A stretch of DNA of 11,775 nucleotides, taken from positions 1-11,775 of IMG/VR virus record IMGVR_UViG_3300045988_040311. One strand, 5' to 3'. The stretch is from a virus. Within the stretch, counting starts at the first letter, position 1, and every line of letters starts with the position of its first letter. The notes under the pieces were generated by a model that worked only from the letters and a program-made list of their open reading frames with translations, had not been told where the DNA came from and did not search any database. A program made the position numbers and the translations under genes. This document shows positions 1 to 11,775 of the stretch, piece by piece.

Positions 1-49
1 ACGAGATTACGTACGGTGACTGGAGTTCAGACGTGTGCTCTTCCGATCT
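1..49. other. Illumina TruSeq indexed adapter (reverse complement); technical sequence, not biology
   Basis: 16-49 = GTGACTGGAGTTCAGACGTGTGCTCTTCCGATCT. 8-15 is the reverse complement of the 8-nt index CGTACGTA. 1-7 is the reverse complement of ATCTCGT. The segment is the exact reverse complement of 11727-11775. Confidence 0.95.
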
Positions 50-69
50 AAATATGCACAACGACCCCT

Positions 70-111
70 TTTTTAACTTTTCCCAACACATTTTTAACAT
101 TCGCCAACAGA
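70..111. repeat. Tandem 21-bp direct repeat inside the ITR (TTTTTAAC-N5-CCAACA-type), mirrored at 11665-11706
   Basis: 70-90 tttttaacttttcccaacaca versus 91-111 tttttaacattcgccaacaga, 17/21 identical. The period of 21 bp is about two helical turns. Confidence 0.6.
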
Positions 112-145
112 GTTTGGCACGCTTTTTGCATAGGCCGTGCCAAAC
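112..145. repeat. ITR hairpin/inverted repeat: 10-bp perfect stem, 14-nt loop (mirrored at 11631-11664)
   Basis: 112-121 gtttggcacg is the reverse complement of 136-145 cgtgccaaac. The loop is ctttttgcataggc. Confidence 0.6.
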
Positions 146-251
146 CTCCATAAACCTAAAGAAAAAAAGCACCTACGAACAGCTATTTGGCCCGATATTT
201 GCATAGCAAAAAAACAAAAAATAACCTTTTAAGATATTTTAATACTAAAAA

Positions 252-285
252 TTTGCATTAAGTACACAAAGTAACTACCTTTGCA
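252..285 (+). promoter_or_regulatory. Candidate early promoter, Bacteroidota sigma-AB type (-33 TTTG / -7 TAnnTTTG)
   Basis: TTTG at 252-255, a 20-nt spacer, then TAccTTTG at 276-283 followed by CAAT. It lies 35 nt upstream of the first ATG (318). The architecture matches the element at 7524-7557. Confidence 0.6.
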
Positions 286-317
286 ATATCAAAATTAAAA
301 AACAAAACATTACAGCA

Positions 318-578
318 ATGAAATACGGCATTTATTACACAGCGAGTAACAGCGACGACAATCACCAAAAAAAGTCACGGGGGTGGTACAACGAAGTACC
401 TTATAGCACATTGAGACAAGCAAAAGCTGCCTTAGAGGGCGTTGCGTGTATGCTCACTGAAGATTGTTACAAGTGCACTTACAAAGATAGATTAACGATG
501 ACGGCTGAGCGCACAGACAACAAGCCGCAGCCCACCACCGACCGCGTTATATTTCATATTTGCGTATATCACTACTAA
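318..578 (+). CDS. Hypothetical early protein (86 aa)
   Basis: First ORF downstream of the candidate early promoter, on the same strand as all other genes. No motif recognised. Confidence 0.55.
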   Translation: MKYGIYYTASNSDDNHQKKSRGWYNEVPYSTLRQAKAALEGVACMLTEDCYKCTYKDRLTMTAERTDNKPQPTTDRVIFHICVYHY

Positions 579-589
579 AATATAATACA

Positions 590-943
590 ATGGCAACTAC
601 AGCACAAATGTACGATGAGATTACACGAATATTGCGCGTAACTCGTAACAATGTAGAACACGAGGCAGAACGTAACAATTCGCAATTACTTAGCGATGTT
701 GCGGTAACTATCGACAACATTGCAACCTTAGTACAAAACATTAGTACTGAGATAAAGACAGCACAAGAGGAAGAAAGTGACGCTTTTGTAATTGCTTGTG
801 CTTACATTATTAACAGAGGCTTATCTAACGATTTTACAACGTTCTTAAGAGAAAAAGTTGCAACATCAAGCGAGAGATACAACCACGAGTTTTACAACAA
901 TGCGTACAACTTATTTATAGAACGTTTCACGAAGCGAGTTTAG
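590..943 (+). CDS. Hypothetical early protein (117 aa from ATG 590; the track ORF starts at 560)
   Basis: The ORF track gives 560..943. ATG 590 avoids overlap with the upstream ORF (stop at 578). The sequence looks mostly helical and no family was recognised. Confidence 0.6.
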   Translation: MATTAQMYDEITRILRVTRNNVEHEAERNNSQLLSDVAVTIDNIATLVQNISTEIKTAQEEESDAFVIACAYIINRGLSNDFTTFLREKVATSSERYNHEFYNNAYNLFIERFTKRV

Positions 944-957
944 AACCTATTATACAC

Positions 958-971
958 GTTCCACGTGGAAC
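958..971. promoter_or_regulatory. Perfect 14-bp palindrome GTTCCACGTGGAAC in an intergenic gap (candidate operator/dimer-binding site)
   Basis: gttccacgtggaac equals its own reverse complement. It lies between the stop at 943 and the ATG at 989. Confidence 0.4.
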
Positions 972-988
972 ACAAACCAACAAACGAA

Positions 989-1198
989 ATGAAAAAGAAG
1001 ATTTTAAAGAAAGTAGGTACATTTATTTTTTGTATCTCTTACATTCTTGTTGTGGTGTCTGTACTTTACGGCTTGTGCATGGCTTTGCAAAGTTGCTCAA
1101 TGTACAAGCAGACCGACATTAACGGCCGTACAACAATTGTAACTACCGACACAACGTACATTAACCACAACACATTACTTAAATATCAAGAGAAATGA
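989..1198 (+). CDS. Small membrane protein, possible lipoprotein (69 aa from ATG 989; the track ORF starts at GTG 965)
   Basis: MKKKILKK is followed by a long hydrophobic stretch (VGTFIFCISYILVVVSVLYGLCMAL) and a lipobox-like LQSC. GTG 965 lies inside the palindrome, so ATG 989 is preferred. Confidence 0.55.
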   Translation: MKKKILKKVGTFIFCISYILVVVSVLYGLCMALQSCSMYKQTDINGRTTIVTTDTTYINHNTLLKYQEK

Positions 1199-1365
1199 AC
1201 GAAGACAGAAACGCATTCGATGAAGCGATATTTACCGCTTGTACATCATTAGGCCAACTTATGACCACCAAAGAAGTTAACGCGAACACTCGCACACTTC
1301 TTAAAATCTCGAAGTTTAGAAACTTCTTGATGAACCTCAGCAACGAACACAGCACCAACAATTAA
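1195..1365 (+). CDS. Small hypothetical protein (56 aa), below the ORF-track length cutoff
   Basis: Hand translation gives MNEDRNAFDEAIFTACTSLGQLMTTKEVNANTRTLLKISKFRNFLMNLSNEHSTNN*. The start overlaps the upstream stop as ATGA. It fills an otherwise empty 180-nt gap. The minus-strand track ORF 1179..1361 is its shadow. Confidence 0.5.
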   Translation: MNEDRNAFDEAIFTACTSLGQLMTTKEVNANTRTLLKISKFRNFLMNLSNEHSTNN

Positions 1366-1376
1366 CATTTTGAGTT

Positions 1377-1730
1377 ATGACAAGTTTCGCAGAAAAGTAC
1401 AACAAGGGCAATAAAAACCCCTTTAAGTTTGACATTAAAGACTACGTATTTACGAGCCTTAAGGAGTTATACAATGCTAAACCTAACGAGGTCCACTCGT
1501 TAGACGGCTTTTACTTCACCCGCAGCAAATTTGGTGTAAAAGTCGTGGTGGTTATGTCGGACGTCAAAAAGCTTGTTGATATGCCGATCTACCTAACAAA
1601 GATGTTTAATGACATTGTAAATGACACGGACGCGGTGAATGACATCAAGAGCGGCAAAGTTGGTTTTATTGTACGTAAGTACGAGAGCCACGGCCGTAAC
1701 TGTCACACTATTACTTTTACAGATAAGTAA
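1377..1730 (+). CDS. Hypothetical early protein (117 aa); weak candidate ssDNA-binding protein
   Basis: It sits just upstream of the TP/polymerase pair, where phi29-type phages encode p5/p6. The C-terminal GKVGFIVRKYESHGRNCHTITF loosely resembles the phi29 p5 C-terminus as I remember it. The functional call is speculative. Confidence 0.5.
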   Translation: MTSFAEKYNKGNKNPFKFDIKDYVFTSLKELYNAKPNEVHSLDGFYFTRSKFGVKVVVVMSDVKKLVDMPIYLTKMFNDIVNDTDAVNDIKSGKVGFIVRKYESHGRNCHTITFTDK

Positions 1731-1743
1731 GTTACACGCACCG

Positions 1744-1779
1744 GGGTAGGTGGTTAATAACTGCCTACCCTTTTAATTT
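1744..1779 (+). terminator. Rho-independent terminator after the early gene block
   Basis: Stem gggtaggtgg (1744-1753) pairs with ctgcctaccc (1761-1770), including two G-U pairs. The loop is ttaataa and ttttaattt follows. Confidence 0.65.
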
Positions 1780-1785
1780 GATATT

Positions 1786-2454
1786 ATGAGGTTAAAAGGT
1801 AAAATAGAATACGCTAATACTACTTTAAGCGCAACGAAACGTGCCGAACTCAAAAAAGAAATTTTGGAGAGTTACGAAAGTAGTCCCGAACTGCGTAAAG
1901 AAATAAGACGTGTGTTTCATCAAGCAAATAGACGTATTCAAAACGTTGAGAGCAAAGGTCTATTAAGCCCCGCGGTAAAAGCCTTGAATAAAGGAGGTAT
2001 TGAGGGTTTCAGCAAATTTGCGGTCGGTGATTTATCATGGGACGAGTTAAAACTAGAATACGCAAAAGCGGTTGCCTTTTTAAAACAGCCTACCAGTACA
2101 GCAGGTGGAACACGAGAATACAACGAGCATTTAAAAAAGGCGTACAATCTTACAGACGATGAATTTAATTTAATGGCCGATAGAATAAACGATAAGATAC
2201 AAAGTATATCGGACACCGATTTTGTTGAAAAATATTTAATGCGTTACAAAGATTTTACGGGCGATTTGGAGAGTGAAGCCGCGGACGTAAGTAGCCAAAT
2301 AGAAAGTGACGCGGTGAGCCTTGAAAACGCACTAGACCGAGATTTGGAAAAAGCGGCAAACGAAAAGACAAACGAAATAGAAGAAGATGTACACAACGCC
2401 TTACAAGGTGCTTTAAATTCAATCCTAGATACATTTGACAAATTTGGATTATGA
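1786..2454 (+). CDS. Candidate terminal protein (222 aa)
   Basis: It lies immediately upstream of the protein-primed polymerase and overlaps it by ATGA (2451-2454). Its size is close to phi29 gp3 (266 aa). It has a basic N-terminal part and a very acidic C-terminal part. The assignment rests mainly on synteny. Confidence 0.5.
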   Translation: MRLKGKIEYANTTLSATKRAELKKEILESYESSPELRKEIRRVFHQANRRIQNVESKGLLSPAVKALNKGGIEGFSKFAVGDLSWDELKLEYAKAVAFLKQPTSTAGGTREYNEHLKKAYNLTDDEFNLMADRINDKIQSISDTDFVEKYLMRYKDFTGDLESEAADVSSQIESDAVSLENALDRDLEKAANEKTNEIEEDVHNALQGALNSILDTFDKFGL

Positions 2455-4637
2455 AAAAGATAACGTATGAACAACATAGTGGTATTTATAAGGCAACCGA
2501 CATACAAGATATTTTGCAGTTGGCCGTAAACGACAAAAACGTAATAGGCAATAACAAAGGGTGTAAATTTTACAACGTCCCTTGTGCATTTGATATAGAA
2601 GTAAGTAGTTTTTACCGAGACGAAGACGGCAACACATATACATACGAGCAGTACAGCAAATTAGGGGTAAAAATGGAAAAGTGTGCCATTATGTACGTGT
2701 GGCAATTTGGTATAAATGGGTACGTAATAGTTGGCCGAACATGGGACGAGTTCGCAGTTATGTGTAACACGATAGCAAAAACGTTGGGGTTATCAGCGAA
2801 CAAAAAAATAATTGTGTACATACACAATTTATCATACGAATTTCAGTTTTTTCGCACCCTTTTTGAGTGGGAAAAGGTTTTTAGTATTGATTTGCGCAAA
2901 CCCCTATACGCAACTACAACTATAGGTATAGAATTTAGGTGCAGCTACTTGTTAAGCGGTTATAATTTGGCAAAATTAGGCGAGCAACTACAAAAGTACA
3001 AATGTGCAAAAATGGTTGGAGATTTGGACTACACCAAAATACGACACACACAAACAGAGTTAACACCGAAAGAATTGCTTTATTGCGTGAATGATATAAA
3101 AGTAGTGATGAACTACATACAAGAGCAATTGGAGCAAAACAAGTTAATAACAAGATTACCCCTAACAAAAACGGGGTATGTGCGTAAACATTGCCGCAAA
3201 GCAATGCTAAGCAAAAATGTTAACGGAAAAACCGCGCGTAATTGGGAATGTATCAATTTAATACAGTCTTTAAATATCAACGGCCTACATGAGTTTAATA
3301 TGCTACAAAGGGCGTTTAGTGGCGGCTTTACTCATGGCAACGCCAACCATATAGATGAAATATGTGAAAACGTTGCGAGTTACGATTTTACAAGTAGTTA
3401 CCCTTATGTTATGGTGTCTGAAAAATTCCCTATGAGTAAGGGGGTACGAGTGAACCCCCGAAACATGAAAGAATTCGAGTACTACACAAGTAAGTACCTG
3501 TGTATCTTTGACGTGGAATTTACCAACATTTTTGCAAAAGAATTGCAAGATAACCCTATAAGTGTAAGCAAATGCTATGTCAAGGTAAACCACGTAGAAA
3601 ACAATGGCCGTTTAGTTTGTGCTGCAAAGGTAGCCACTACAATAACAAACATAGACTACAACATAATACGCAACTTTTACACGTGGGGCGGTGTCCGTAT
3701 CGGCGCAATGTATTGCTATAAGGCCGACTATTTGCCAACTGATTTTGTACGTACCATTTTGGACCTATATGAAAATAAGACAAAGTTAAAAGGCGTGCAA
3801 GGAAAAGAAGTGGAGTATCTAAATAGTAAGGAAATGCTAAACAGTTGCTACGGTATGTGTGTTACTAACCCTTTGCGTGATGAGTTCGTATATGACGGCA
3901 AATGGGACGAAAACACACTAACAGACAGCGAAAAAGCAGAAATGTTGCAGAAGTACAACGAAAGTAAAAACCGCTTTTTGTTTTACCCTTGGGGCGTATT
4001 TGTTACCGCCTATGCAAGGCGCAATTTATTTACAGCGATTTATGAGGCAAAGCAAGATTACATTTACAGCGATACAGACAGCATAAAGTTAAAGAACGCA
4101 GCAGCACATAAGCGGTATTTTAATATGTATAACAATGTAGTATATAACAAATTAAAGGAAGCGTGTAAACATCACAACATAGACTTTGCCAAATGCGAAC
4201 CCGAAACCATTAAGGGAGTTACTAAAACGTTAGGCGTTTGGGACTACGAGGGGACATACAAACGTTTTAAGACGTTAGGCGCAAAGAGATATATGGTGCA
4301 AGAAGAAAACGCACTTAATGTAGGCGGCAAAAGTTATGAATATAGCCTAACAATTAGCGGTGTCAACAAAAAATCGGCTATACCATACCTCGTTAAAAAG
4401 TATGGTGACAACATATTTAACGCCTTTACAAATTACCTTGAATTTCCACGCGAAGCCACGGGCAAAAATATACATACGTACATAGACTACAAAATAACGG
4501 GTGAAGTTACCGACTATCAAGGTAAAAAATGTACATTTGCAGAAAACACGGGTGTACATTTAGAGCCAACAAGTTATAATTTATCATTAAGTGTGATGTA
4601 TCTAAATTATCTAAAGGGTATAAAATTAAAAGACTGA
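2451..4637 (+). CDS. Protein-primed family-B DNA polymerase (728 aa)
   Basis: Exo I is FDIE (D48/E50, nt 2592-2600). Exo II is HNLSYEF (N126..E130). Exo III is YCVND (Y211..D215). Motif A is DFTSSYPY. Motif B is KEMLNSCYG. Motif C is YSDTDS (nt 4065-4082). The KxY motif is GAKRY. The order and wording match phi29 gp2-type polymerases. Confidence 0.95.
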   Translation: MKKITYEQHSGIYKATDIQDILQLAVNDKNVIGNNKGCKFYNVPCAFDIEVSSFYRDEDGNTYTYEQYSKLGVKMEKCAIMYVWQFGINGYVIVGRTWDEFAVMCNTIAKTLGLSANKKIIVYIHNLSYEFQFFRTLFEWEKVFSIDLRKPLYATTTIGIEFRCSYLLSGYNLAKLGEQLQKYKCAKMVGDLDYTKIRHTQTELTPKELLYCVNDIKVVMNYIQEQLEQNKLITRLPLTKTGYVRKHCRKAMLSKNVNGKTARNWECINLIQSLNINGLHEFNMLQRAFSGGFTHGNANHIDEICENVASYDFTSSYPYVMVSEKFPMSKGVRVNPRNMKEFEYYTSKYLCIFDVEFTNIFAKELQDNPISVSKCYVKVNHVENNGRLVCAAKVATTITNIDYNIIRNFYTWGGVRIGAMYCYKADYLPTDFVRTILDLYENKTKLKGVQGKEVEYLNSKEMLNSCYGMCVTNPLRDEFVYDGKWDENTLTDSEKAEMLQKYNESKNRFLFYPWGVFVTAYARRNLFTAIYEAKQDYIYSDTDSIKLKNAAAHKRYFNMYNNVVYNKLKEACKHHNIDFAKCEPETIKGVTKTLGVWDYEGTYKRFKTLGAKRYMVQEENALNVGGKSYEYSLTISGVNKKSAIPYLVKKYGDNIFNAFTNYLEFPREATGKNIHTYIDYKITGEVTDYQGKKCTFAENTGVHLEPTSYNLSLSVMYLNYLKGIKLKD
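4530..4542 (+). promoter_or_regulatory. Possible internal promoter -7 box (TGTACATTTGCAG) upstream of the ATPase gene
   Basis: TAcaTTTG lies at 4532-4539. The 13-mer is identical to 5777-5789. It is inside the polymerase 3' end, about 100 nt before ATG 4642, and has no good -33 TTTG. Confidence 0.3.
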
Positions 4638-4641
4638 AACA

Positions 4642-5772
4642 ATGAAGAAAGAAACAAATAAGAAAGAAACGATAAAATTTTACTCGCTCACAAACATATT
4701 AAACAAAAATGCAGATTATAACATAATATTTGGCGAGCGTTCGAACGGCAAAACTTACGCCACTTTGGCGTATGGTATTAAACGTTACATACAGACGGGC
4801 GAACAAATGGCCTATATACGTAGGTGGCGCGAGGATTTACGCGGCAAACGTGCTGAAAATCTGTTTGCTAACCACGTGGCAAACGGGTATATTGAAGAAG
4901 TAACAAATGGAGAATTTAACTCTGTATTTTATATTGGCGGTAAATGGTATCTTGCAAAATACGACCACGAAAAAAAGAAGTACGTACCACAAACTACACC
5001 TTTTTGCTATGGTTTTTGCTTATCAGAGCAAGAGCACGAAAAAAGTAGCAGTTACCCCAACGTTACCACGATTGTTTTTGATGAGTTTTTAACTCGTAGG
5101 TACTATTTGCCCGATGAATTTATGTTGTACATGAACTTGTTAAGTACCATAATAAGACAGCGAGACAACGTTAAAGTATTTATGCTTGGTAACACAATAA
5201 ACAAGTTTTGCCCCTACTTCACCGAAATGGGGTTGAAGCAAGTAACGAACATGGAACAAGGCACTATCGACATATACAAGTTTGGGAAACATGGTGCAGT
5301 AGTGGCGGTGGAGTATTGCAGTACCATTGTTAAACAAAAAGCAAGTAACAAGTACTTTTGCTTTGATAATCAAAATCTTGAAATGATAACGGGCGGCAAA
5401 TGGGAAATGGCGGCCTATCCACATTTGCCCACGAAGTACAAACCAAATGACGTGCTTTTTGTGTATTACATTGTATTCAATGAATATATTTTGCAAGGCA
5501 ACATTATTCAGCACGGAAACGAAAACTTTACGTATATCCACCTAAAGACCACCCCTATAAAAGACCCCGACAACGCGCTAATATATAGCCTAACGATGAA
5601 CGGGAAACCCAACTACAAAAGAAAGTTACTAAGTAGCGCTACATACCTAGAAACGCAAGTTGCGCGGTACTTTGCAACTGATAAAGTATTTTACCAAAAT
5701 AATGAGGTTGGCGAGATTGTGAGAAATTATTTAATGACTTCAGCAAAAACTAACATTGTAAGTATAAAATAA
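4642..5772 (+). CDS. DNA encapsidation/packaging ATPase, phi29 gp16-like (376 aa)
   Basis: Walker A is GERSNGKT (nt 4732-4755). Walker B is TTIVFDE (D147/E148, nt 5080-5085). The size and single-subunit arrangement are typical of the protein-primed podovirus packaging ATPase. Confidence 0.85.
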   Translation: MKKETNKKETIKFYSLTNILNKNADYNIIFGERSNGKTYATLAYGIKRYIQTGEQMAYIRRWREDLRGKRAENLFANHVANGYIEEVTNGEFNSVFYIGGKWYLAKYDHEKKKYVPQTTPFCYGFCLSEQEHEKSSSYPNVTTIVFDEFLTRRYYLPDEFMLYMNLLSTIIRQRDNVKVFMLGNTINKFCPYFTEMGLKQVTNMEQGTIDIYKFGKHGAVVAVEYCSTIVKQKASNKYFCFDNQNLEMITGGKWEMAAYPHLPTKYKPNDVLFVYYIVFNEYILQGNIIQHGNENFTYIHLKTTPIKDPDNALIYSLTMNGKPNYKRKLLSSATYLETQVARYFATDKVFYQNNEVGEIVRNYLMTSAKTNIVSIK

Positions 5773-5776
5773 TTTC

Positions 5777-5789
5777 TGTACATTTGCAG
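5777..5789 (+). promoter_or_regulatory. Candidate late promoter -7 box (TAcaTTTG, 5779-5786) in the ATPase/late-operon gap
   Basis: It is intergenic, 21 nt upstream of ATG 5807. There is only a partial -33 (aTTG at 5755-5758). The 13-mer TGTACATTTGCAG is shared with 4530-4542. Confidence 0.5.
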
Positions 5790-5806
5790 TAATAAAACCT
5801 TACAAA

Positions 5807-6013
5807 ATGGATATTACACAAGTCACACAAATGATTTCAAATGTTGGTTTTCCCATCGCAATGTGCTTAATCGTATTTTATTACATGACAAAACACGATG
5901 AGCAGCACAAAGAGGAAACAGACAACCTACGTACAACTTTGGAGGATAACACCAAAGTTTTAAGCGAGTTATCAACCCTTATAAAAACCTTGACAGATGG
6001 CAAAGAAAGATAA
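5807..6013 (+). CDS. Small single-pass membrane protein (68 aa), YvrJ-like; holin/lysis candidate
   Basis: The N-terminal segment ISNVGFPIAMCLIVFYYM is hydrophobic and resembles the YvrJ-family signature as I remember it. A charged helical tail follows. It is the first gene of the late block. Confidence 0.6.
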   Translation: MDITQVTQMISNVGFPIAMCLIVFYYMTKHDEQHKEETDNLRTTLEDNTKVLSELSTLIKTLTDGKER

Positions 6014-7034
6014 CTTGTACTTAAAGTATCAAGAGCAAATAAAAAACAAAGACAAAAGCGTAAATGGCTACATTCGAAAGATGTTAGCCATCACGCAAGC
6101 CATGTTTGAGTACAAAGGTTTACCCGAAACGTTACCCCAAAACAATTTGGAAAACCTTTTGCAGACCAACGGCAATGTTTTTGTAACTGAGGTAGACGGC
6201 AAAATGTACGCTTTTACTGGTGGTCTTGGAGGTGTACCCAACGCGTACAATGAGGCAACCGAGTACATTGTAAGTAACCCCTACCTCAACCTTAACAAGT
6301 CGTACAAAATAGGAGTTGAAGGCGTCCTAATTAAAAACGATAGTGGTGCAAATAGCCTTTTACCTATCTTCGGTAAATATGGTGTATTGTGTAGTGATAC
6401 GCTTTTGTCGCTTAATACGTGTTCGGTACTCTCTCGTATCACTATGTTAATAAGTGCGAGCGATGACAAGACAAAGCAAAGCGCGGACGATTTTGTAAAC
6501 AAAATCATGCAAGGGGATTTTTCAGTGATTGGCGAAAACGCATTTTTTAAGGGGGTGAACTTGCAAAGCATTTCCACGCAGAGCGCGAACCAAATAACGC
6601 AACTTATTGAACTACTTCAATACTTCAAGGCGTCCGCCTTTAATGAAATAGGCCTAAACGCTAACTACAACCTAAAGCGCGAGCGGTTGAATACAAGCGA
6701 GGTGCAAATGAATGTGGACGCCCTAAACCCCTACGTTGATAATATGCTGCAAGAGCAAAAAAAGGCAGTAGAAAAAATAAACGCTATGTTTGGCACTGAA
6801 ATTAGTGTAGAGTTGGGTAGTAGTTGGGCGATACGCAAAGAAGAAAACAAAACCGAAAACGAAGACAATGAAGATAATAAAAATAATACTTCTGATAGTG
6901 GCGAAAGTGCTAGTGAACAGAAAGAAGAGGAAGTAACAGAAACGGAAACCGAAACCGAAACGGAAACCGAAACGGAAACCGAAACGGACAACGAAAAGGA
7001 CGAAGAAAACGAAGAAGAAAATGAAAATAATTGA
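5997..7034 (+). CDS. Portal (upper collar/connector) protein, phi29 gp10-like (345 aa), with a long acidic low-complexity C-terminal tail
   Basis: Several blocks are collinear with remembered phi29 gp10. MAKKDN...MFEYKGLPETLP matches MARKRS...LFEWENLPPTI. NEATEY matches NQATVF. GLNANYNLKRERLNTSEV matches GIKNANLEKKERMVTDEV. AVEKINAMFGTEISVEL matches ACEKINELYGLNVKVKF. Confidence 0.9.
   Translation: MAKKDNLYLKYQEQIKNKDKSVNGYIRKMLAITQAMFEYKGLPETLPQNNLENLLQTNGNVFVTEVDGKMYAFTGGLGGVPNAYNEATEYIVSNPYLNLNKSYKIGVEGVLIKNDSGANSLLPIFGKYGVLCSDTLLSLNTCSVLSRITMLISASDDKTKQSADDFVNKIMQGDFSVIGENAFFKGVNLQSISTQSANQITQLIELLQYFKASAFNEIGLNANYNLKRERLNTSEVQMNVDALNPYVDNMLQEQKKAVEKINAMFGTEISVELGSSWAIRKEENKTENEDNEDNKNNTSDSGESASEQKEEEVTETETETETETETETETDNEKDEENEEENENN
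6936..6983 (+). repeat. In-frame hexanucleotide microsatellite (ACS-GAA)x8 encoding (Thr-Glu)8
   Basis: The sequence is aca gaa acg gaa acc gaa acc gaa acg gaa acc gaa acg gaa acc gaa, then acg gac. It lies inside the portal C-terminal acidic tail. Confidence 0.9.
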
Positions 7035-7590
7035 CCTTTACCCCGACCCTAAACACGGCCTATTTACGGAGGTGTTCAAACCAAATTTTGCCACGGAATA
7101 CGCTGCAATATTTGGCGACCTTAATAGTGTCGGCCTTGATACGCTTGTACTACTCAACTACAGCGAGCGAGAGTGTATCAACACCATAACACAAGCCAAC
7201 GCCAACGAGTATATAAAAAATATCATTGCGTTGAGTGTTAATAATTGGGTACGTGTTGCGAGTGCCTACAATGCGCAATATGATGTACTTAACCCTATAC
7301 AGCAGCAGACAACACGCGAAGACAAGACCACCGAAAGCGCGAACAATAACAACACAAATGTTTCGTCTAATAAGCCATACAACGAAAAGGATTTTGTGGA
7401 GTACGACAAAGATAGTACCACGTACGACAATACACGTACTAACGATGTGACGAGTACACAAAAGGTTGTAGGCCTTGGCTCGAAGTCAGCAACGGACGAA
7501 CTTACAAAGGAAATTGAATTTAATTTGCAAAATTGGCGCAAAAGTATTATTTTTGCAATTATAAATGATATAACTAAATTAATATACTAA
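7021..7590 (+). CDS. Virion-module protein (189 aa); candidate lower collar/head-tail adaptor, alternatively scaffold
   Basis: It directly follows the portal with a 14-nt overlap, as gene 11 follows gene 10 in phi29. It has helical N- and C-terminal parts flanking a polar T/N/D-rich middle that could form an extended beta-hairpin. The function is inferred from position only. Confidence 0.55.
   Translation: MKIIDLYPDPKHGLFTEVFKPNFATEYAAIFGDLNSVGLDTLVLLNYSERECINTITQANANEYIKNIIALSVNNWVRVASAYNAQYDVLNPIQQQTTREDKTTESANNNNTNVSSNKPYNEKDFVEYDKDSTTYDNTRTNDVTSTQKVVGLGSKSATDELTKEIEFNLQNWRKSIIFAIINDITKLIY
7524..7557 (+). promoter_or_regulatory. Candidate promoter for the major capsid gene (-33 TTTG / -7 TAttTTTG)
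   Basis: TTTG at 7524-7527, a 20-nt spacer, then TAttTTTG at 7548-7555 followed by CAAT. Spacing and flanks match the early promoter at 252-285. It lies 37 nt upstream of ATG 7592, inside the 3' end of the preceding ORF. Confidence 0.55.
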
Positions 7591-7591
7591 C

Positions 7592-8761
7592 ATGGAAGTA
7601 AAACAAATTTTTACCCTAATAAATTCCGTATCTGAGGAAGTATTGGGAACAACAGAACTTGTTAGCGAGGATTTAACGGGCCTTGTCGATTTGGGTAATG
7701 AGGTTTTTAACCAAAACGCGGTAGACAATTACGTAAAATCACTTGTTAACCACATTGGCAAAGTTGTGTTTGTCAATCGTCCTTACGCGGGCAAAATCCC
7801 CTCTGTACTTATGGACGCATGGGAATTTGGTTCAGTACTCGAAAAAATTAGCGCGGACCTGCCAGAGGCCGAAGAGAATAAAAGTTGGGAACTAACGGAC
7901 GGTACCGACTACTCACAAGATGTATTCCATAAGCCACAAGTTACGGCAAAGTTCTTCAATTCAAAGGTAACTTTCGAGGTGCCCGTTTCTATAACCGAGC
8001 GACAAGTTAAGGAGAGTTTTAGCAACGCTGAGCAACTTAACGCGTTTCTTTCGATGATTTACAACGCGGTGGAGAAGTCTATCACCATAAAGACAGACGC
8101 GTTAATTATGCGTACTATCAATAACATGATAGCACAAACTTTAATAGCTGATAACGAGGCCTTTGGTGGCGATAAAATCGACTACGCAACCAATAGCACC
8201 GCCCGTTGTGTCAACTTGCTAAAGTTGTACAAAGATAACAAAGGTACTACTTTGACCGCTGCAAAGGCGCTGACCGACCCCGATTTTATCAAATTCGCTA
8301 GTTACACAATCGGTTTGTACACGGATAGACTCGCCAGTATTTCTAGCGCCTTTAACATTGGAGGTAAGCCACGCTTTACCCCTCGCGAAAACTTACACGT
8401 TGTACTACTTTCGGACTTCGAAAAGGCCGCGCGTGCGTACTTGTACAGCGATACGTACAACAAAGAGCAGGTACTATTGCCTAACGCGGAAAGTGTTCCA
8501 TTTTGGCAGGGAAGCGGCACAAAGTACGATTTTGCAAGCACGGCACACATCGACATCACGGAGACAGGCGGCAAACCCGTTAAAATTAGCGGCGTACTTG
8601 GCGTTATGTTCGATCGAGAAGCGTTAGGCGTTTGTAACCTCAACCGCCGCGTAACTACTAACTATAACGCAAAGGCCGAGTTCTTTAATAACTATTACAA
8701 GTTTGATGCTGGCTACTTCAACGATACAAACGAAAACTTTGTAGTTTTCTTCGTTGCTTAA
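7592..8761 (+). CDS. Major capsid protein, phi29 gp8-like (HK97 fold expected), 389 aa, without a C-terminal Ig-like extension
   Basis: NAVDNYVKSLVNHIGKVVFVNR is collinear with phi29 gp8 NDFITSLVDRIGLVVIRQ. ESFSNAEQLNAFLSMIYNAVEKS is collinear with [23 protein letters not shown]. The gene has its own promoter and a strong downstream terminator. Confidence 0.85.
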   Translation: MEVKQIFTLINSVSEEVLGTTELVSEDLTGLVDLGNEVFNQNAVDNYVKSLVNHIGKVVFVNRPYAGKIPSVLMDAWEFGSVLEKISADLPEAEENKSWELTDGTDYSQDVFHKPQVTAKFFNSKVTFEVPVSITERQVKESFSNAEQLNAFLSMIYNAVEKSITIKTDALIMRTINNMIAQTLIADNEAFGGDKIDYATNSTARCVNLLKLYKDNKGTTLTAAKALTDPDFIKFASYTIGLYTDRLASISSAFNIGGKPRFTPRENLHVVLLSDFEKAARAYLYSDTYNKEQVLLPNAESVPFWQGSGTKYDFASTAHIDITETGGKPVKISGVLGVMFDREALGVCNLNRRVTTNYNAKAEFFNNYYKFDAGYFNDTNENFVVFFVA

Positions 8762-8781
8762 TTGTATTGAGTTGTGATTGA

Positions 8782-8822
8782 GGGTGTAAGGTGTAAACAA
8801 CTTTACACCCTTTTAAATTTTT
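8782..8822 (+). terminator. Rho-independent terminator after the capsid gene
   Basis: ggtgtaaa (8790-8797) pairs with tttacacc (8802-8809) around the loop caac. An alternative 5' arm is gggtgtaa at 8782-8789. The tract ttttaaattttt follows. Confidence 0.7.
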
Positions 8823-8828
8823 ACAAAT

Positions 8829-9278
8829 ATGGTATCAGTAAATTTTTACAACTATAATGGAGATATACGGGTGATAAATAAAACACTACCTACACCCGTT
8901 AATATACCTTGCGAGTTGCGGAAAAGTTTTAACGTGTTAACCCCTACTTTATTAGTAAGAAGAACAACACCCCCAAATTTTAACTACTGCGAAATAGATA
9001 GTTTAGGGCGTTTCTATTCAATTACTGACGTTAAATTTGTAGGTAATTATACCTACGAAATTTCTCTAAAAGTTGACGTTCTGAAAACGTATGAAACGGC
9101 AATTTTACAGACAAAAGCAAGGGTAACAGAAACAGACAACGCGAACCCCTACATATCTAACAGAGAAAACGTATTTAATCGTGTACCTAATTTTGAAAAG
9201 GTTGAATTTCCTAATAAAAACCTATTAGACGAAAACGGCCAAATTGTTATGGTAACACTGAAAGGTACTAACAATTAA
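8829..9278 (+). CDS. Tail-knob N-terminal domain protein (phi29 gp9 N-terminus-like), 149 aa
   Basis: NFNYCEIDSLGRFYSITDVKFVGNYTYEISLKVDVLKTYE parallels phi29 gp9 [39 protein letters not shown]. This is a Caud_tail_N-type domain (family name from memory). Confidence 0.7.
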   Translation: MVSVNFYNYNGDIRVINKTLPTPVNIPCELRKSFNVLTPTLLVRRTTPPNFNYCEIDSLGRFYSITDVKFVGNYTYEISLKVDVLKTYETAILQTKARVTETDNANPYISNRENVFNRVPNFEKVEFPNKNLLDENGQIVMVTLKGTNN

Positions 9279-9288
9279 ACTATAAAAT

Positions 9289-11508
9289 ATGGCACTTGCA
9301 AAAATTAAAATACATGGTAGTTTTCTACATTGTAAACCCGTACCCGATTATATAGAAGTACCACAAAACCTCGATGTTGTAGTAGTTGCTGATGATGGCT
9401 TTATATTCAAGGAAACAGATATGCCCCGTATTGTTTACGACCAATATGTTTCACACTATGAATATAAATTCGACAAGATTACAGAAGACGGGAAAAAAGC
9501 TATTTTTAATAACTACTTCAACGATGGCTTAAAAAATGTACAAATAACCGCAACCGCTTACGAAAGCGGTGTGACCCCTGGCAAACAGATACCCGTAATC
9601 ACTAAGCTAACTAATTGCGCCGCTAACGCTGACCTACACACAGAAGTAGAAGTGGGTAAAACTTTGATCGTTACACTAACGGCAAATGAAGGGTATAAAT
9701 TCGATGCCGCCAAAAGTACACCAAACTTTTCGTACGATGACGAGAGCTACAACGCTATAATTAAAAATTTTACTATTTCGGAAGACGGAGCAACCGCAAC
9801 GGGCAAAATAGTTATAGGAAATTGGGACGATTTCCAAATAAGGGGTACAGCGTACACCATACCTACCCCCGTTAAAAAGGTTGCTGTAACTACTGCCCTA
9901 ACTAATTGCACCGCTAATAGCGACCTACACACAGAAGTAGAGGTGGGCCGAACTTTAAGCGTTACACTAACAGCTAACACGGGGTGCGTATTTGATAAAA
10001 CAAAAAGTGTACCCGCGTTTTCTTATAGCGATGAAAACGCAGTTACTAAAGAAAAACCCTTTACTATCTCTGAAAATGGTAAAACAGCAACGGGCGAAAT
10101 AGTTATGGGTGATTACTCCAATTTTATAATAAAAGGTGAAGCATACACCCAAACTACCCCCGTTAAAAAGGTTGCAGTAACTACCGCCCTAACTAATTGC
10201 ACAGCTAACGCTGACCTACCCACAGAAGTAGAAGTGGGGCAAACTTTAAACGTTACGCTAACAGCGAAAGAAAGTGCTTTGTTTGATGCAAACAAAAGTA
10301 CACCTTATTTCTCATACACTAATGAAAATTTGGACCCCGTAGAAAAGAAATTTACTATTTCAAGCGATAACAGAATCGCAACGGGCAAAGTAGTTATGGG
10401 TGATTGGGAAGACTTCACAATAACAGGTACAGCGTACACACAACCTACACCCGTTAAAAAGGTAGAGGTAGAATCTAATCTTTCTAATTGCACCGCTAAC
10501 GCTGACCTACCCACAGAAGTAGAGGTAGGGCAAACTTTAAAAGTTACACTAACAGCAAATGAGAATACTAAATTTGATGCAACCAAAAGTACACCTCATT
10601 TCTCATATCAAGATGAACACCTTGATTTTAGAACACAAAACCTTACTATTTCAGAAGATAACCTAACAGCAACGGGCGAAATAGTTATGGGGGATTGGGA
10701 TTTGTTCACCATAGAGGGCGAAGCATACCCTGTGGCGGTGGTAGGTGGTAAATATGGTGCGGTTAATGTTTACCTAGTTACTAATGATAACCTAAACGAA
10801 TTTAGTACAAAACGTTTCTTCCGTGTAACGGGTACAGACCCAGAAACGGGCGCGGCTATTTACGATAATGTAGATTTAGGCGACTACGTGAACAAGATTG
10901 TACGTATATATACCCCGATAAAAGCAAGTAGTACAGATGTTATACGATGCGGTAACTACAATACTAAAATAAGATGTTACCAACCCGAAACCGACAAAAT
11001 TACACTCAATTTCGGAGATATCACAATACCTAACCACAATAAAAATAACGTGGATTTTGAAAGCGTTGTGCAATTGTTTTTGCCTTTCTTGGGATTCGTG
11101 AATATTCCAAATGATTACATAGGTAAAACTATAAATTTACAATATGTTATTAACGTTCTAACGGGTAATGCGAGCGCGTTAATATCTTGTAACGGGGTTG
11201 TATTCCAAGTTGAAGAAACAGAACCAAAAACCAACGTTTTATACCTATCACAAAACACAGAGAGCAAAACGATAGGCGGTGACGATTGGAACGAACGGCT
11301 ATTTTACGGAATAGAACCATACGTTTTACTAAAATGGTTTAGTAGTTTGGGTGAGGGTTTGAATAATGACCGAAAAAGCGGTAATATTGGTAGTTTTACG
11401 GGTTTTTCGCGTTTCGATGATGTAGAACCTATCAGCGCAGAAAATATGATGATAGAAGAACAAAAACAAATTTACGATTTGTTGAGTAGTGGTATTTACG
11501 TAGAATAG
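9289..11508 (+). CDS. Large tail protein (739 aa): five tandem 97-aa beta-rich repeat domains fused to a gp9-like tail-knob C-terminal region
   Basis: aa 1-485 are 5 x 97-aa repeats (the first degenerate). aa 486-739 carry LFLPFLGFVNIP...LTGNASALISC and a terminal EEQKQIYDLLSSGIYVE. The latter parallels the phi29 gp9 end NDLQEIRTIFDNGITLWH. Confidence 0.75.
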   Translation: MALAKIKIHGSFLHCKPVPDYIEVPQNLDVVVVADDGFIFKETDMPRIVYDQYVSHYEYKFDKITEDGKKAIFNNYFNDGLKNVQITATAYESGVTPGKQIPVITKLTNCAANADLHTEVEVGKTLIVTLTANEGYKFDAAKSTPNFSYDDESYNAIIKNFTISEDGATATGKIVIGNWDDFQIRGTAYTIPTPVKKVAVTTALTNCTANSDLHTEVEVGRTLSVTLTANTGCVFDKTKSVPAFSYSDENAVTKEKPFTISENGKTATGEIVMGDYSNFIIKGEAYTQTTPVKKVAVTTALTNCTANADLPTEVEVGQTLNVTLTAKESALFDANKSTPYFSYTNENLDPVEKKFTISSDNRIATGKVVMGDWEDFTITGTAYTQPTPVKKVEVESNLSNCTANADLPTEVEVGQTLKVTLTANENTKFDATKSTPHFSYQDEHLDFRTQNLTISEDNLTATGEIVMGDWDLFTIEGEAYPVAVVGGKYGAVNVYLVTNDNLNEFSTKRFFRVTGTDPETGAAIYDNVDLGDYVNKIVRIYTPIKASSTDVIRCGNYNTKIRCYQPETDKITLNFGDITIPNHNKNNVDFESVVQLFLPFLGFVNIPNDYIGKTINLQYVINVLTGNASALISCNGVVFQVEETEPKTNVLYLSQNTESKTIGGDDWNERLFYGIEPYVLLKWFSSLGEGLNNDRKSGNIGSFTGFSRFDDVEPISAENMMIEEQKQIYDLLSSGIYVE
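9580..10743 (+). repeat. Tandem 291-bp coding repeats x4 (9580, 9871, 10162, 10453), plus a degenerate fifth copy at 9289-9579
   Basis: The LTNC(T/A)AN(A/S)DL(H/P)TEVEVG(x)TL(x)VTLTA block recurs with a period of exactly 97 aa (Cys at aa 110, 207, 304, 401). The repeated minus-strand shadow ORFs in the track reflect the same repeats. Confidence 0.9.
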
Positions 11509-11526
11509 AAGCAAATGCTTATGCAA

Positions 11527-11566
11527 ATAGCGCGCCAAAATATTTTGGTGCGCTATTTTTGTTTTG
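11527..11566 (+). terminator. Rho-independent terminator after the tail gene, abutting the right ITR
   Basis: The stem runs 11527-11539 against 11544-11556 (atagcgcgccaaa / tttggtgcgctat, one G-U pair) with an atat loop. The tract ttttgttttg follows. Confidence 0.7.
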
Positions 11567-11726
11567 TTGCTATGCAAATATCGGGCCAAATAGCTGTTCG
11601 TAGGTGCTTTTTTTCTTTAGGTTTATGGAGGTTTGGCACGGCCTATGCAAAAAGCGTGCCAAACTCTGTTGGCGAATGTTAAAAATGTGTTGGGAAAAGT
11701 TAAAAAAGGGGTCGTTGTGCATATTT
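11567..11726. repeat. Right inverted terminal repeat (160 bp)
   Basis: It is the exact reverse complement of 50-209 and ends ...GGGGTCGTTGTGCATATTT-3', followed by the A-tail and the adapter. Confidence 0.95.
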
Positions 11727-11775
11727 AGATCGGAAGAGCACACGTCTGAACTCCAGTCACCGTACGTAATCTCGT
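11727..11775. other. Illumina TruSeq indexed adapter read-through (AGATCGGAAGAGCACACGTCTGAACTCCAGTCAC + index CGTACGTA + ATCTCGT); technical
   Basis: It matches the remembered TruSeq adapter sequence exactly. The leading A is the library A-tail. Confidence 0.95.

What the first reader, a model, noticed from the sequence alone, without database searches (positions are those of the whole stretch)
1..11775. Adapter-capped contig: a physically complete 11,677-bp linear genome of a miniature phi29-like phage
Seen: the same TruSeq adapter read-through abuts both ends, directly against perfect 160-bp ITRs. This is expected when many library fragments end at one defined base, meaning true molecular termini rather than an assembly break. 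Between the ends are 14 ORFs, all on the + strand, about 94% coding by my count. They include a protein-primed PolB, a gp16-like ATPase, a gp10-like portal, a gp8-like capsid protein and gp9-like knob parts. Established, from memory: cultured phi29-type podoviruses are about 16-20 kb with divergent early and late transcription. The only tailed phage I recall at this size, with ITRs and unidirectional genes, is Mycoplasma phage P1 (about 11.7 kb). Inference: this is a near-minimal tailed dsDNA virus from an undescribed lineage.
Basis: partly seen in the sequence, partly recalled or inferred. Interest (0 to 1): 0.8.

Follow-up and report, generated by a model that had tools for sequence, protein, structure and literature searches.

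The report
Complete mini phi29-like gut phage genome
This is a physically complete 11.7-kb linear genome of an uncultured, very small tailed phage, but it belongs to an already known group of miniature phi29-like phages (the Astrithrvirus relatives) and has hundreds of catalogued gut relatives, so it is a new member and not a new lineage.

Summary
A 49-nt TruSeq indexed adapter caps both ends. It abuts a perfect 160-bp inverted terminal repeat (171 bp with one mismatch). The genome between the adapters is 11,677 bp and has 14 same-strand ORFs (93.8% coding). Pfam confirms a protein-primed-type PolB, a gp16 ATPase, a gp10 portal and a phi29-type capsid protein.

More than 25 independent contigs of relatives stop at the same 5'-AAA base, several with adapter abutting it. 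No end-to-end junction was found. The ends are therefore real.

The closest cultured relatives are the 11.2-11.9 kb Astrithrvirus-like phages (Salmonella Astrid/astrithr, Pectobacterium DU_PP_III, Acinetobacter Phanie). Their capsid proteins are 54-59% identical and their PolB 40-45%, and nine genes are collinear. IMG/VR holds 340 relatives, the closest about 86% identical in nucleotides. Contigs 99.9% identical exist in ENA and Logan assemblies.

What differs here:
- All genes are on one strand.
- The early genes are unrelated to those of the cultured relatives.
- No peptidoglycan hydrolase is recognisable.
- There are no Shine-Dalgarno sites, and TAnnTTTG promoter boxes are conserved, which points to a Bacteroidota host (inferred).
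- The distal tail protein carries five Ig-like domains, and close relatives vary in copy number.

Verdict: a new member of a known kind, of moderate interest.

The parts
1..49 (-). TruSeq indexed-adapter read-through (reverse complement), not phage DNA
   Evidence: Exact reverse complement of 11727-11775. Adapter identity is from memory.
50..220 (.). Left inverted terminal repeat: perfect over 50-209 (160 bp), then one mismatch at 210, extending to 220. The 5' terminus reads AAATATGCAC.
   Evidence: The terminus is conserved in relatives.
70..109 (+). Two tandem 21-nt units (TTTTTAACnTTnCCCAACAnA) just inside the terminus. This is a conserved box and a candidate origin element.
   Evidence: TRF. 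TTTAACnTTTCCCAAC is near-invariant in 14 aligned relatives.
113..206 (+). Two iterons TTTGGCnCGnTnTTTGCATAG at 113-133 and 186-206. The first lies in an imperfect palindrome at 112-145. A third copy lies at 11520-11539, just outside the right ITR.
   Evidence: D5, D10, D14. The core TTTGGCACG[CG]TTTTTG is invariant and present in 2-4 copies in relatives. A protein-binding role is inferred.
252..283 (+). Candidate early promoter of Bacteroidota type (TTTG-N20-TACCTTTG), 35 nt upstream of ORF1
   Evidence: Conserved in the window's subclade.
318..1365 (+). ORF1 (318-578, 86 aa), ORF2 (590-943, 117 aa), ORF3 (989-1198, 69 aa, hydrophobic N-terminus with an LQSC lipobox-like site) and ORF4 (1195-1365, 56 aa). 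These are early genes of unknown function.
   Evidence: No family hits. No counterpart in Astrid or Phanie. The ORF3 and ORF4 families occur in about 70 relatives.
1377..1730 (+). ORF5, 117 aa, conserved in 80 relatives, function unknown. An ssDNA-binding role is a guess from size and position only.
   Evidence: No hits.
1743..1771 (+). Intrinsic-terminator-like hairpin plus T run after the early block
   Evidence: 13 pairs.
1786..2454 (+). ORF6, 222 aa, all-alpha: candidate terminal protein. Its stop overlaps the PolB start (ATGA).
   Evidence: Profile match to Astrid ORF002 and Phanie gp2, E 1e-23. PMC11476376 reports a terminal-protein counterpart in these phages without naming the gene; equating it with Astrid ORF002 is my inference from its position upstream of PolB. 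AF2 model is all-alpha with pLDDT 72. No direct match to phi29 TP. T103, T105 and Y150 are invariant and S104 nearly so.
2451..4637 (+). Family-B DNA polymerase of the protein-primed type, 728 aa
   Evidence: PF03175; phrog_1907 2e-70; phi29 DNAP 1xhx 3.5e-11, with motifs A, B, C and KxY aligned. Exo I, II and III were located by pattern; Exo III also lies in the alignment.
4642..5772 (+). gp16-like DNA encapsidation ATPase, 376 aa
   Evidence: PF05894 2e-23; phrog_2150 4e-35.
5779..5786 (+). TACATTTG -7 box upstream of ORF9, a candidate promoter
   Evidence: TAnnTTTG is present upstream of ORF9 in 85 of 86 relatives.
5807..6013 (+). ORF9, 68 aa, one transmembrane helix plus a coiled-coil tail: holin-like membrane protein
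   Evidence: phrog_4898 holin 1.4e-11. Homologous to Astrid ORF005 and Phanie gp5.
5997..7034 (+). Portal (gp10-like upper collar), 345 aa, with a very acidic (TE)n C-terminal tail encoded by 12-nt tandem repeats at 6935-7021
   Evidence: PF05352 3e-15; phrog_2038. TRF.
7021..7590 (+). ORF11, 189 aa: candidate shortened lower collar (gp11 counterpart)
   Evidence: Profile match to Astrid ORF007 and Phanie gp7, about 1e-14. PMC11476376 reports a shortened lower collar in these phages without naming the gene; the mapping to ORF007/gp7 is my inference. No direct match to phi29 gp11.
7524..7555 (+). Candidate late promoter TTTG-N20-TATTTTTG, 37 nt upstream of the capsid gene
   Evidence: The -7 box is present in 81 of 96 relatives.
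7592..8761 (+). Major capsid protein, phi29 type, 389 aa
   Evidence: PF25622 4.8e-53.
8780..8812 (+). Terminator-like hairpin after the capsid gene
8829..9278 (+). ORF13, 149 aa: proximal part of a split tail knob (counterpart of the N-terminal part of phi29 gp9)
   Evidence: Homologous to Astrid ORF009 and Phanie gp9. The top PDB hits of the family profile are the knob proteins of phages C1, phi29 and Andhra, at E 0.05-1. hhalign vs phi29 gp9 gives E 5e-4. Fused with the C-terminal part in L093.
9289..11508 (+). ORF14, 739 aa: distal tail-knob protein. It has five Ig-like domains (residues 1-93, then four 97-aa repeats at nt 9574-10728) followed by a conserved C-terminal knob domain (residues 483-739).
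   Evidence: Repeats. AF2 pLDDT is 85-90 for residues 1-480 and low for the C-terminus. Foldseek matches are Ig-domain arrays. The C-terminus is homologous to Astrid ORF010. Homologues are 448, 545, 642 or 739 aa long.
11525..11558 (+). Palindromic terminator-like hairpin after the last gene; it overlaps the third iteron copy
   Evidence: 15 pairs; I4.
11556..11726 (.). Right inverted terminal repeat (perfect over 11567-11726)
11727..11775 (+). A-tail plus TruSeq indexed-adapter read-through

Best explanation
The window is the complete linear dsDNA genome (11,677 bp, 160/171-bp ITRs, 5'-AAA ends) of an uncultured miniature podophage. It belongs to the phi29-like supergroup, within the radiation that contains the cultured genus Astrithrvirus.

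Shown:
- It encodes a phi29-type capsid protein, portal, gp16 packaging ATPase and protein-primed-type PolB.
- Nine genes (ORF6 to ORF14) are collinear and homologous with Astrid ORF002-010 and Phanie gp2-gp10.
- The ends are real molecular termini shared by many relatives.

Inferred:
- ORF6 is the terminal protein. It primes replication by PolB from both ITRs, with sliding-back on the 3'-TTT.
- The iterons in the ITR bind an origin or regulatory protein.
- Host RNA polymerase transcribes everything left to right from Bacteroidota-type promoters. Hairpin terminators lie after the early block, after the capsid gene and after the last gene.
- TP-DNA is packaged by the gp16-like ATPase, with no detectable pRNA.
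- The tail is a stub: a short lower collar (ORF11) plus a knob split into ORF13 and the C-terminus of ORF14. The lateral Ig-like domains of ORF14 are the only candidate adsorption device.
- The host is probably a gut Bacteroidota.

In taxonomic terms it is a new species in a large, catalogued but unnamed genus-level gut clade.
For: Gene identities.

Closest cultured relatives, all 10.4-11.9 kb: capsid 54-59% and PolB 40-45% identical. Synteny is shown and profile homology (ORF6 1e-23, ORF9 5e-17, ORF11 2e-14, ORF13 5e-32, ORF14 7e-24).

True ends: at least 25 relatives' contigs end exactly at AAATATGCA or AAAGGTACGC. Adapter abuts AAA in L015, L038, L069, L087 and L096. There are no ITR-ITR junctions. 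Among more than 600 ORF14 and 3,365 ORF6 protein clusters, the longest contig never exceeds 12.1 kb among the 120 best clusters listed for each. There is no plasmid match.

Relatives: 340 in IMG/VR. The best is L005, at 95% coverage and 86% identity. Contigs 99.9% identical exist in ENA and Logan.

Host inference: 0 of 14 genes have an SD motif, whereas most Astrid gene starts show a purine-rich GAGG/AAGG-type motif upstream (judged by eye). TAnnTTTG occurs 33 times vs 17.8 +/- 4.1 expected. Full -33/-7 matches lie directly upstream of ORF1 and the capsid gene. The -7 box is conserved at specific genes across the clade, and SD 5-mers occur at 26 of about 880 gene starts. The consensus promoter and SD-less translation of Bacteroidetes are described in PMC6847099.

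Split knob.
Against: - The terminal-protein, lower-collar and knob C-terminal assignments rest on homology to Astrid and Phanie proteins plus a published annotation. Direct sequence-profile and fold comparisons with phi29 TP, gp11 and gp9 were negative or marginal.
- No reads were available, so the pile-up of fragment ends was not seen directly.
- The host is inferred from expression signals only. MAG bins holding relatives are taxonomically scattered.
- No lysin was found, so an autonomous lytic cycle is not fully accounted for.
Confidence: 0.85

Rival explanations
1. It is a helper-dependent (satellite-like) mini-phage, like its cultured relative Acinetobacter phage Phanie. It replicates and packages its own DNA. 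For infectivity its Ig-domain knob must attach to the tail of an unrelated helper phage, and it may also rely on the helper for lysis.
For: Phanie is reported to be non-infectious unless bound to a myophage tail, and the review suggests relatives may behave likewise (PMC11476376). The window has no tail fibre or spike. It has no peptidoglycan hydrolase in any frame, and none of 80 relatives has one. The lateral Ig-like arrays vary in copy number.
Against: Astrid, astrithr and assan have the same tail plan, and Astrid is described as non-satellite (bioRxiv 10.1101/2025.06.18.659913). Gene content therefore does not distinguish the two lifestyles. No helper was identified. Failure to detect a lysin is negative evidence.
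Confidence: 0.15
2. The inverted ends and adapter caps are assembly artefacts (a fold-back or chimeric contig), and the true molecule is circular, longer or permuted.
For: The two ends share one graph path, so identical adapter caps are not independent evidence. Some relatives' contigs carry chimeric extras beyond the terminus, and the near-identical L096 has a junk left end.
Against: The same terminal base recurs in at least 25 independent contigs from several projects and library types. The cultured relative Astrid has an annotated 83-bp terminal repeat. There is no end-to-end junction anywhere. Contig lengths cluster at 11-12 kb. The unique-to-ITR joins at 220/221 and 11555/11556 lie within assembled sequence.
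Confidence: 0.03
3. It is a linear protein-primed plasmid or phage-plasmid, or a defective element, and not a virulent phage.
For: ITRs plus PolB also typify linear plasmids. No lysin was found.
Against: A full capsid, portal, ATPase and tail-knob module is present. There are no partition, integrase or repressor hits. There is no PLSDB match. It is never found embedded in a longer contig. The cultured relatives are lytic phages.
Confidence: 0.04

Closest known systems
Genus Astrithrvirus (Salmonella phages Astrid, astrithr, assan) and unclassified allies (Pectobacterium DU_PP_III, Enterobacter Entb_47, Shigella vB_SHGBLB0004, Vibrio K58 g2)
   Same: Genome of 10.4-11.9 kb. Terminal repeats. 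Collinear block of TP candidate, PolB, gp16 ATPase, small membrane protein, portal, short lower collar, capsid, and a split knob in two genes. No tail fibres. ExoII motif HNLSYEFQF.
   Different: Only 54-59% (capsid) and 40-45% (PolB) identity, with no nucleotide match. The window has five unrelated early genes on the left, where these phages have several minus-strand genes at the right end. It lacks the CHAP lysin or amidase gene. It has no SD sites and carries Bacteroidota-type promoter boxes, whereas these phages have SD sites and enterobacterial hosts. Its ITR is 160/171 bp, against 83 bp annotated in Astrid.
Acinetobacter phage Aci01-2-Phanie
   Same: Same core synteny. The distal knob protein carries a string of Ig-like domains (six reported in Phanie, five here) ahead of a gp9-C-like domain (PMC11476376).
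   Different: Phanie has an amidase gene and two minus-strand genes. Its helper dependence is shown experimentally; nothing comparable is known here.
IMG/VR UViG 3300029828_000086 (L005) and about 340 other uncultivated gut relatives
   Same: L005 aligns over 95% of the genome at about 86% nucleotide identity, with the same gene order and the same AAATATGCA terminus.
   Different: It is a different species by the 95% criterion. ORF2 is only 36% identical. Other close relatives (L003) have swapped tail-knob genes: ORF13 42% and ORF14 31%, against capsid 95%.
Bacillus phage phi29 (Salasmaviridae)
   Same: Protein-primed PolB with a TP-position gene upstream. 5'-AAA termini. phi29-type capsid, portal and gp16 ATPase. 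gp9-like knob N-terminal region.
   Different: phi29 is 19.3 kb with 6-bp ITRs and divergent early and late operons. It has a pRNA, scaffold, head fibres, gp12 appendages, the gp13 tail lysin and the gp15 endolysin. None of these was detected here.
   Same: 11,660 bp, with ITRs (350 bp) and a PolB.
   Different: Its genes are convergent (orf1-6 on +, orf7-11 on -). Only marginal PolB similarity (E 1e-3), and no detectable capsid, portal or ATPase similarity.

Membership tests
phi29-like phages (hallmark set p2, p8, p9, p10, p11, p16 as defined in PMC11476376) | phi29-type major capsid protein (p8) | tested here: met
   PF25622 4.8e-53, covering the full length.
phi29-like phages | Connector / upper collar (p10) | tested here: met
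   PF05352 3.2e-15; phrog_2038 5.5e-36.
phi29-like phages | gp16-type encapsidation ATPase | tested here: met
   PF05894 2.3e-23.
phi29-like phages | Protein-primed family-B DNA polymerase (p2) | tested here: met
   PF03175 7e-12. The only PDB hit is phi29 DNAP, at 3.5e-11. Motifs A, B, C and KxY are aligned with it. Exo I, II and III were located by pattern, and Exo III also lies in the alignment.
phi29-like phages | Tail knob protein (p9) | tested here: inconclusive
   Three of the four top PDB hits of the ORF13 family profile are knob proteins of C1, phi29 and Andhra, but at E 0.05-1. hhalign gives E 4.8e-4 and probability 32%. The ORF14 profile gives no gp9 hit, and its C-terminal domain has low pLDDT. 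A fused version in L093 links the two parts.
phi29-like phages | Lower collar (p11) | tested here: inconclusive
   ORF11 is homologous to Astrid ORF007 and Phanie gp7. There is no detectable similarity to phi29 gp11 or to solved lower collars.
phi29-like phages | Terminal protein covalently linked to the 5' ends | tested here: inconclusive
   ORF6 lies immediately upstream of PolB and overlaps it. It is all-alpha and homologous to Astrid ORF002. It has no match to phi29 TP by profile or fold. Where the adapter at a terminus can be classified, it is always the indexed one, which fits 5'-blocked ends, but only two libraries are informative. Covalent linkage is not testable here.
phi29-like phages | Linear genome with inverted terminal repeats and reiterated terminal bases | tested here: met
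   160-bp perfect ITR and a 5'-AAA terminus conserved in relatives.
Salasmaviridae / Picovirinae (phi29 proper) | Prohead RNA gene | tested here: not met
   No Rfam hit. The only long non-coding stretch folds no better than shuffled sequence, z about -1.
Genus Astrithrvirus | At least 70% genome-wide nucleotide similarity to Astrithrvirus astrithr (ICTV genus criterion, from memory) | tested here: not met
   No megablast match to any GenBank phage. Capsid 57% and PolB 44% amino-acid identity.
Astrithrvirus-like radiation (MCP 'cluster 23' and allies, PMC11476376) | 11-14 kb genome, two-gene knob, short lower collar, no fibres, collinear core | tested here: met
   NJ trees place the window's clade among lineages around Astrid and Phanie.
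Astrithrvirus-like radiation | CHAP/amidase lysin gene after the knob gene, and leftward early genes at the right end | tested here: not met
   Absent from the window and from all 80 IMG/VR relatives examined. Some more distant relatives do have one minus-strand ORF at the right end.
Satellite phages of the Phanie type | Infectivity depends on a helper phage's tail | not testable with these tools
   Only circumstantial evidence: no lysin, no fibres, Ig-domain knob.
Delislevirus (Mycoplasma phage P1) | Homologous structural and replication genes | tested here: not met
   Only PolB fragments match, at E 1e-3 to 4e-3.

The most novel reading that the evidence does not exclude
This abundant gut clade of 11-kb phi29-like phages, probably of Bacteroidota, has dispensed with any muralytic enzyme and any fibre or spike. 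This could be because it is a Phanie-like hitch-hiker that borrows a helper phage's tail and lysis. Alternatively, it lyses and penetrates without a peptidoglycan hydrolase, through a holin-like ORF9, the lipoprotein-like ORF3, or an amurin-type mechanism. Neither has been described for tailed phages of Bacteroidota.
Probability: 0.15. Interest if true: 0.7.

Novelty: new member of a known kind. Interest (0 to 1): 0.32.

Why it matters
The window is a clean, end-to-end reference genome, with exact termini, for a very common but unnamed gut lineage. That lineage sits at the lower size limit of tailed phages, which the literature puts at about 11.6 kb. It extends the Astrithrvirus-like radiation from Proteobacteria to a probable Bacteroidota host. 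It also shows a stripped-down variant: 14 genes on one strand with no recognisable lysin. This sharpens two questions: what is the minimal autonomous gene set of a tailed phage, and are such phages helper-dependent? It does not reveal a new kind of virus.

Tried and rejected
- pRNA: there is no Rfam hit, and the 268-nt left non-coding region shows no excess folding.
- Direct link of ORF6 to phi29 TP: a profile search of PDB, Foldseek against PDB and BFVD, and hhalign were all negative.
- ORF11 vs phi29 gp11: negative.
- ORF14 C-terminal domain: the AF2 monomer has low confidence there, so Foldseek returned only generic Ig arrays. The profile search of PDB was negative.
- ORF1 to ORF5: Pfam, PHROGs and NCBIfam gave nothing, as did hhalign against all phi29 early proteins.
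- Lysin hunt: Pfam was run on the 14 ORFs and on ten alternative-frame or minus-strand ORFs, PHROGs on all 14, and NCBIfam on the ten without a confident family. Extra ORFs of relatives were scanned, and tblastn was run with the Astrid CHAP and Phanie amidase proteins. All were negative.
- Host from MAG bins: the 13 GTDB contigs sit in bins of unrelated taxa, so they are whole-phage contigs that were mis-binned.
- PLSDB plasmids: no match.
- Adapter-terminus and ITR-ITR junction patterns in IMG/VR: only L015 and unrelated contigs were returned.
- Sample accessions were not found in the literature. The Phanie paper is not held.
- My first ITR length of 171 bp perfect was wrong.
- One hhalign script timed out.

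Full report
**1. The observation**

Window bases 1-49 are the exact reverse complement of 11727-11775. The sequence is AGATCGGAAGAGCACACGTCTGAACTCCAGTCAC-CGTACGTA-ATCTCGT. From memory, that is an A-tail plus the TruSeq indexed adapter, index 22.

Between the adapters lie 11,677 bp with GC 38.8%. There is one mismatch at 210 vs 11566, and ten further paired bases reach 220/11556. I first read ('220 nt, 100%') as a perfect 171 bp. That figure was rounding.

Fourteen + strand ORFs cover 93.8% of the genome. An independent gene caller found the same 14 on a 99.97%-identical Logan contig.

Pfam and PHROGs confirm four gene identities:
- PolB: PF03175, phrog_1907 2e-70.
- gp16 ATPase: PF05894 2e-23.
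- Portal: PF05352 3e-15.
- phi29-type capsid protein: PF25622 5e-53.

The only PDB sequence hit of the polymerase is phi29 DNAP (3.5e-11), with motifs A, B, C and KxY aligned. Exo I, II and III were located by pattern; Exo III also lies in the alignment.

**2. Are the ends real?**

Identical adapter caps are not two independent observations. The ITR collapses both ends onto one assembly-graph path. Independent evidence comes from relatives.

- Among about 95 related contigs, at least 25 end exactly at 5'-AAATATGCA (the window's subclade) or 5'-AAAGGTACGC (the neighbouring subclade).
- In L015, L038, L069, L087 and L096, an Illumina adapter abuts the AAA directly.
- Tagmentation-library contigs begin 9-20 nt inside the terminus, as expected at a physical DNA end.
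- No contig of the clade, and no IMG/VR relative, contains an ITR-ITR junction.
- Among more than 600 clusters of ORF14 relatives and 3,365 clusters of ORF6 relatives, the 120 best clusters listed for each all lie on contigs of 12.1 kb or less.
- Where the adapter at a true terminus can be classified, it is always the indexed adapter. That adapter ligates to the 3'-OH. The universal adapter appears only at internal breaks. This fits 5' ends blocked by a residual terminal-protein peptide, but only two libraries are informative.

The first 50 nt are conserved: AAA, then TTTAACnTTTCCCAAC. The ITR also carries 2-4 iterons, TTTGGCACG[CG]TTTTTG.

**3. What it is**

There is no nucleotide match to any GenBank phage. 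Protein searches tell a different story. The capsid protein is 54-59% identical, and the PolB 40-45% identical, to a cultured set of phages of 10.4-11.9 kb:
- Pectobacterium DU_PP_III.
- Acinetobacter Phanie.
- Enterobacter Entb_47.
- Shigella vB_SHGBLB0004.
- Vibrio K58 g2.

Profile HMMs built from the window's relatives match Astrid ORF002-010 and Phanie gp2-gp10 gene for gene and in the same order, except that ORF14 matched Astrid ORF010 only, not Phanie gp10. The E-values are ORF6 1e-23, ORF9 5e-17, ORF11 2e-14, ORF13 5e-32 and ORF14 7e-24.

A 2024 review (PMC11476376) treats these phages as phi29-like phages of Gram-negative hosts. It describes 11-14 kb genomes, a TP counterpart, a shortened lower collar, a two-gene knob and no fibres. 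A 2025 preprint names Astrid (11.6 kb) as the smallest tailed-phage genome. The kind is therefore known.

IMG/VR holds 340 relatives with 76-95% capsid identity, almost all 11-12 kb. The closest is L005, at 95% coverage and about 86% nucleotide identity. Contigs 99.9% identical occur in ENA and Logan assemblies. Rough NJ trees place the window's clade among several lineages around Astrid and Phanie.

Mycoplasma phage P1 has convergent genes and only marginal PolB similarity to the window.

**4. What differs from the cultured relatives**

*(a) Early genes.* ORF1 to ORF5 have no counterpart in Astrid or Phanie. The minus-strand right-end genes of those phages are absent here. The window is strictly unidirectional, although some more distant gut relatives keep one minus-strand ORF at the right end.

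*(b) No lysin.* No peptidoglycan hydrolase is recognisable in any frame. None of 80 relatives has a homologue of the Astrid CHAP protein or the Phanie amidase.

*(c) Expression signals.*
- None of the 14 genes has a Shine-Dalgarno motif, whereas most Astrid gene starts show a purine-rich GAGG/AAGG-type motif upstream (judged by eye).
- TAnnTTTG occurs 33 times against 17.8 +/- 4.1 expected.
- The two + strand matches to TTTG-N17-23-TAnnTTTG lie directly upstream of ORF1 and of the capsid gene.
- Across the clade, the -7 box is conserved upstream of ORF9 (85 of 86), the capsid gene (81 of 96), ORF13 (65 of 90) and ORF6 (56 of 79). It is essentially never present upstream of other genes. SD 5-mers occur at 26 of about 880 gene starts.
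- These are the promoter consensus and the SD-less translation of Bacteroidetes (PMC6847099).

I therefore infer a Bacteroidota host with confidence of about 0.65. MAG bins give no usable host signal.

*(d) The distal knob protein.* ORF14 has five confidently modelled Ig-like domains: residues 1-93 plus four 97-aa repeats. Close relatives carry 1-4 repeats, giving lengths of 448, 545, 642 and 739 aa. In L003, ORF13 and ORF14 are only 42% and 31% identical to the window's, while the capsid is 95% identical. This is the mosaic pattern typical of a specificity module.

**5. Tail and TP assignments**

The top PDB hits of the ORF13 family profile are the knob proteins of phages C1, phi29 and Andhra, all in the same N-terminal region, at E 0.05-1. 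hhalign against phi29 gp9 gives E 5e-4. In the distant relative L093, one 546-aa protein combines an ORF13-like N-terminus with an ORF14-C-like C-terminus. These results support a split gp9.

ORF11 and ORF6 could not be linked directly to phi29 gp11 or to phi29 TP. Their roles rest on position, on homology to the Astrid and Phanie genes, and on the published annotation. The review names the functions but not the genes, so the gene mapping is my inference.

No pRNA was detected.

**6. Mechanism**

The mechanism set out under the best explanation is mostly inferred. In outline:
- TP-primed replication from both ITRs.
- Left-to-right transcription by host polymerase, with hairpin terminators at 1743-1771, 8780-8812 and 11525-11558.
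- gp16-driven packaging.
- A minimal tail.
- A holin-like ORF9 (phrog_4898, 1e-11).

How peptidoglycan is breached at entry and at exit is unexplained. That gap keeps open a Phanie-like helper-dependent lifestyle, or a hydrolase-free lysis.

**7. Verdict**

This is a new member of a known kind, and interest is moderate to low (0.32). Its main value is as an exact-ended reference genome for a very common gut lineage, together with the missing-lysin question.

Noticed in passing
window 1-11775, all six frames; L003-L082: No recognisable peptidoglycan hydrolase anywhere in the genome. There is no homologue of the Astrid CHAP or Phanie amidase gene in any of 80 IMG/VR relatives. How the phage crosses and lyses the cell wall is unexplained.
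   Followed up: partly
window 9574-10728 (ORF14 residues 96-483); P0001-P0120: Homologues of the distal knob protein are 448, 545, 642 or 739 aa long, which corresponds to 1-4 copies of a 97-aa Ig-like unit. The copy number varies among otherwise close relatives.
   Followed up: partly
L093:4498-6135: In a more distant relative (capsid 53% identical), a single 546-aa protein combines an ORF13-like N-terminus with an ORF14-C-terminus-like region. The knob is therefore split in some lineages and fused in others.
   Followed up: partly
window 1-49 and 11727-11775; L038, L096, L050, L068, L034, L057, L012 ends: At true termini, only the indexed (3'-OH-ligated) TruSeq adapter is seen where it can be classified. 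The universal adapter occurs only at internal breaks. Nextera contigs start 9-20 nt inside the end. This fits 5'-blocked (protein-linked) ends, but only two independent libraries are informative.
   Followed up: partly
window 6935-7021 (portal residues ~280-345): The portal ends in an extremely acidic low-complexity tail (TETETETE..., DNEKDEENEEENENN) encoded by 12-nt tandem repeats. Its function is unknown. The portals of Astrid and Phanie differ in length from this one.
   Followed up: no
window 113-133, 186-206, 11520-11539 (and mirrored copies in the right ITR): Iterons with core TTTGGCnCGnTnTTTGCATAG occur in 2-4 copies in relatives. The first sits in an imperfect palindrome (112-145). 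The third copy, outside the ITR, is part of the terminal hairpin at 11525-11558.
   Followed up: partly
window 2823-2840 (PolB residues 125-130); L001 and all relatives: The Exo II motif reads HNLSYEFQF, with glutamate where phi29 has catalytic D66 (HNLKFDGAF). This holds across the whole radiation, including Astrid.
   Followed up: partly
window 989-1198 (ORF3): This small early protein has a long hydrophobic N-terminus ending in a lipobox-like LQSC. It could be an outer-membrane lipoprotein, for example for superinfection exclusion or with a spanin-like role. I read this by eye only.
   Followed up: no
window 2092-2100 and 2233-2235 (ORF6 residues 103-105 and 150): T103, T105 and Y150 are invariant across TP-candidate homologues down to 23% identity, including Astrid and Phanie. 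S104 is nearly invariant. These are candidate priming residues.
   Followed up: no
L096 (ENA ERZ27272141 k141_75467) 1-59: This 99.9%-identical contig carries the same adapter and index at its right end. At its left end it has 59 nt of unrelated sequence in place of the first bases of the ITR, which is an assembly chimera at a terminus. Similar extras occur in L010, L052, L059 and L078.
   Followed up: partly
L003 vs window: The TP candidate is only 63% identical between two genomes whose PolB is 94% identical. This suggests module exchange or fast evolution of the TP.
   Followed up: no
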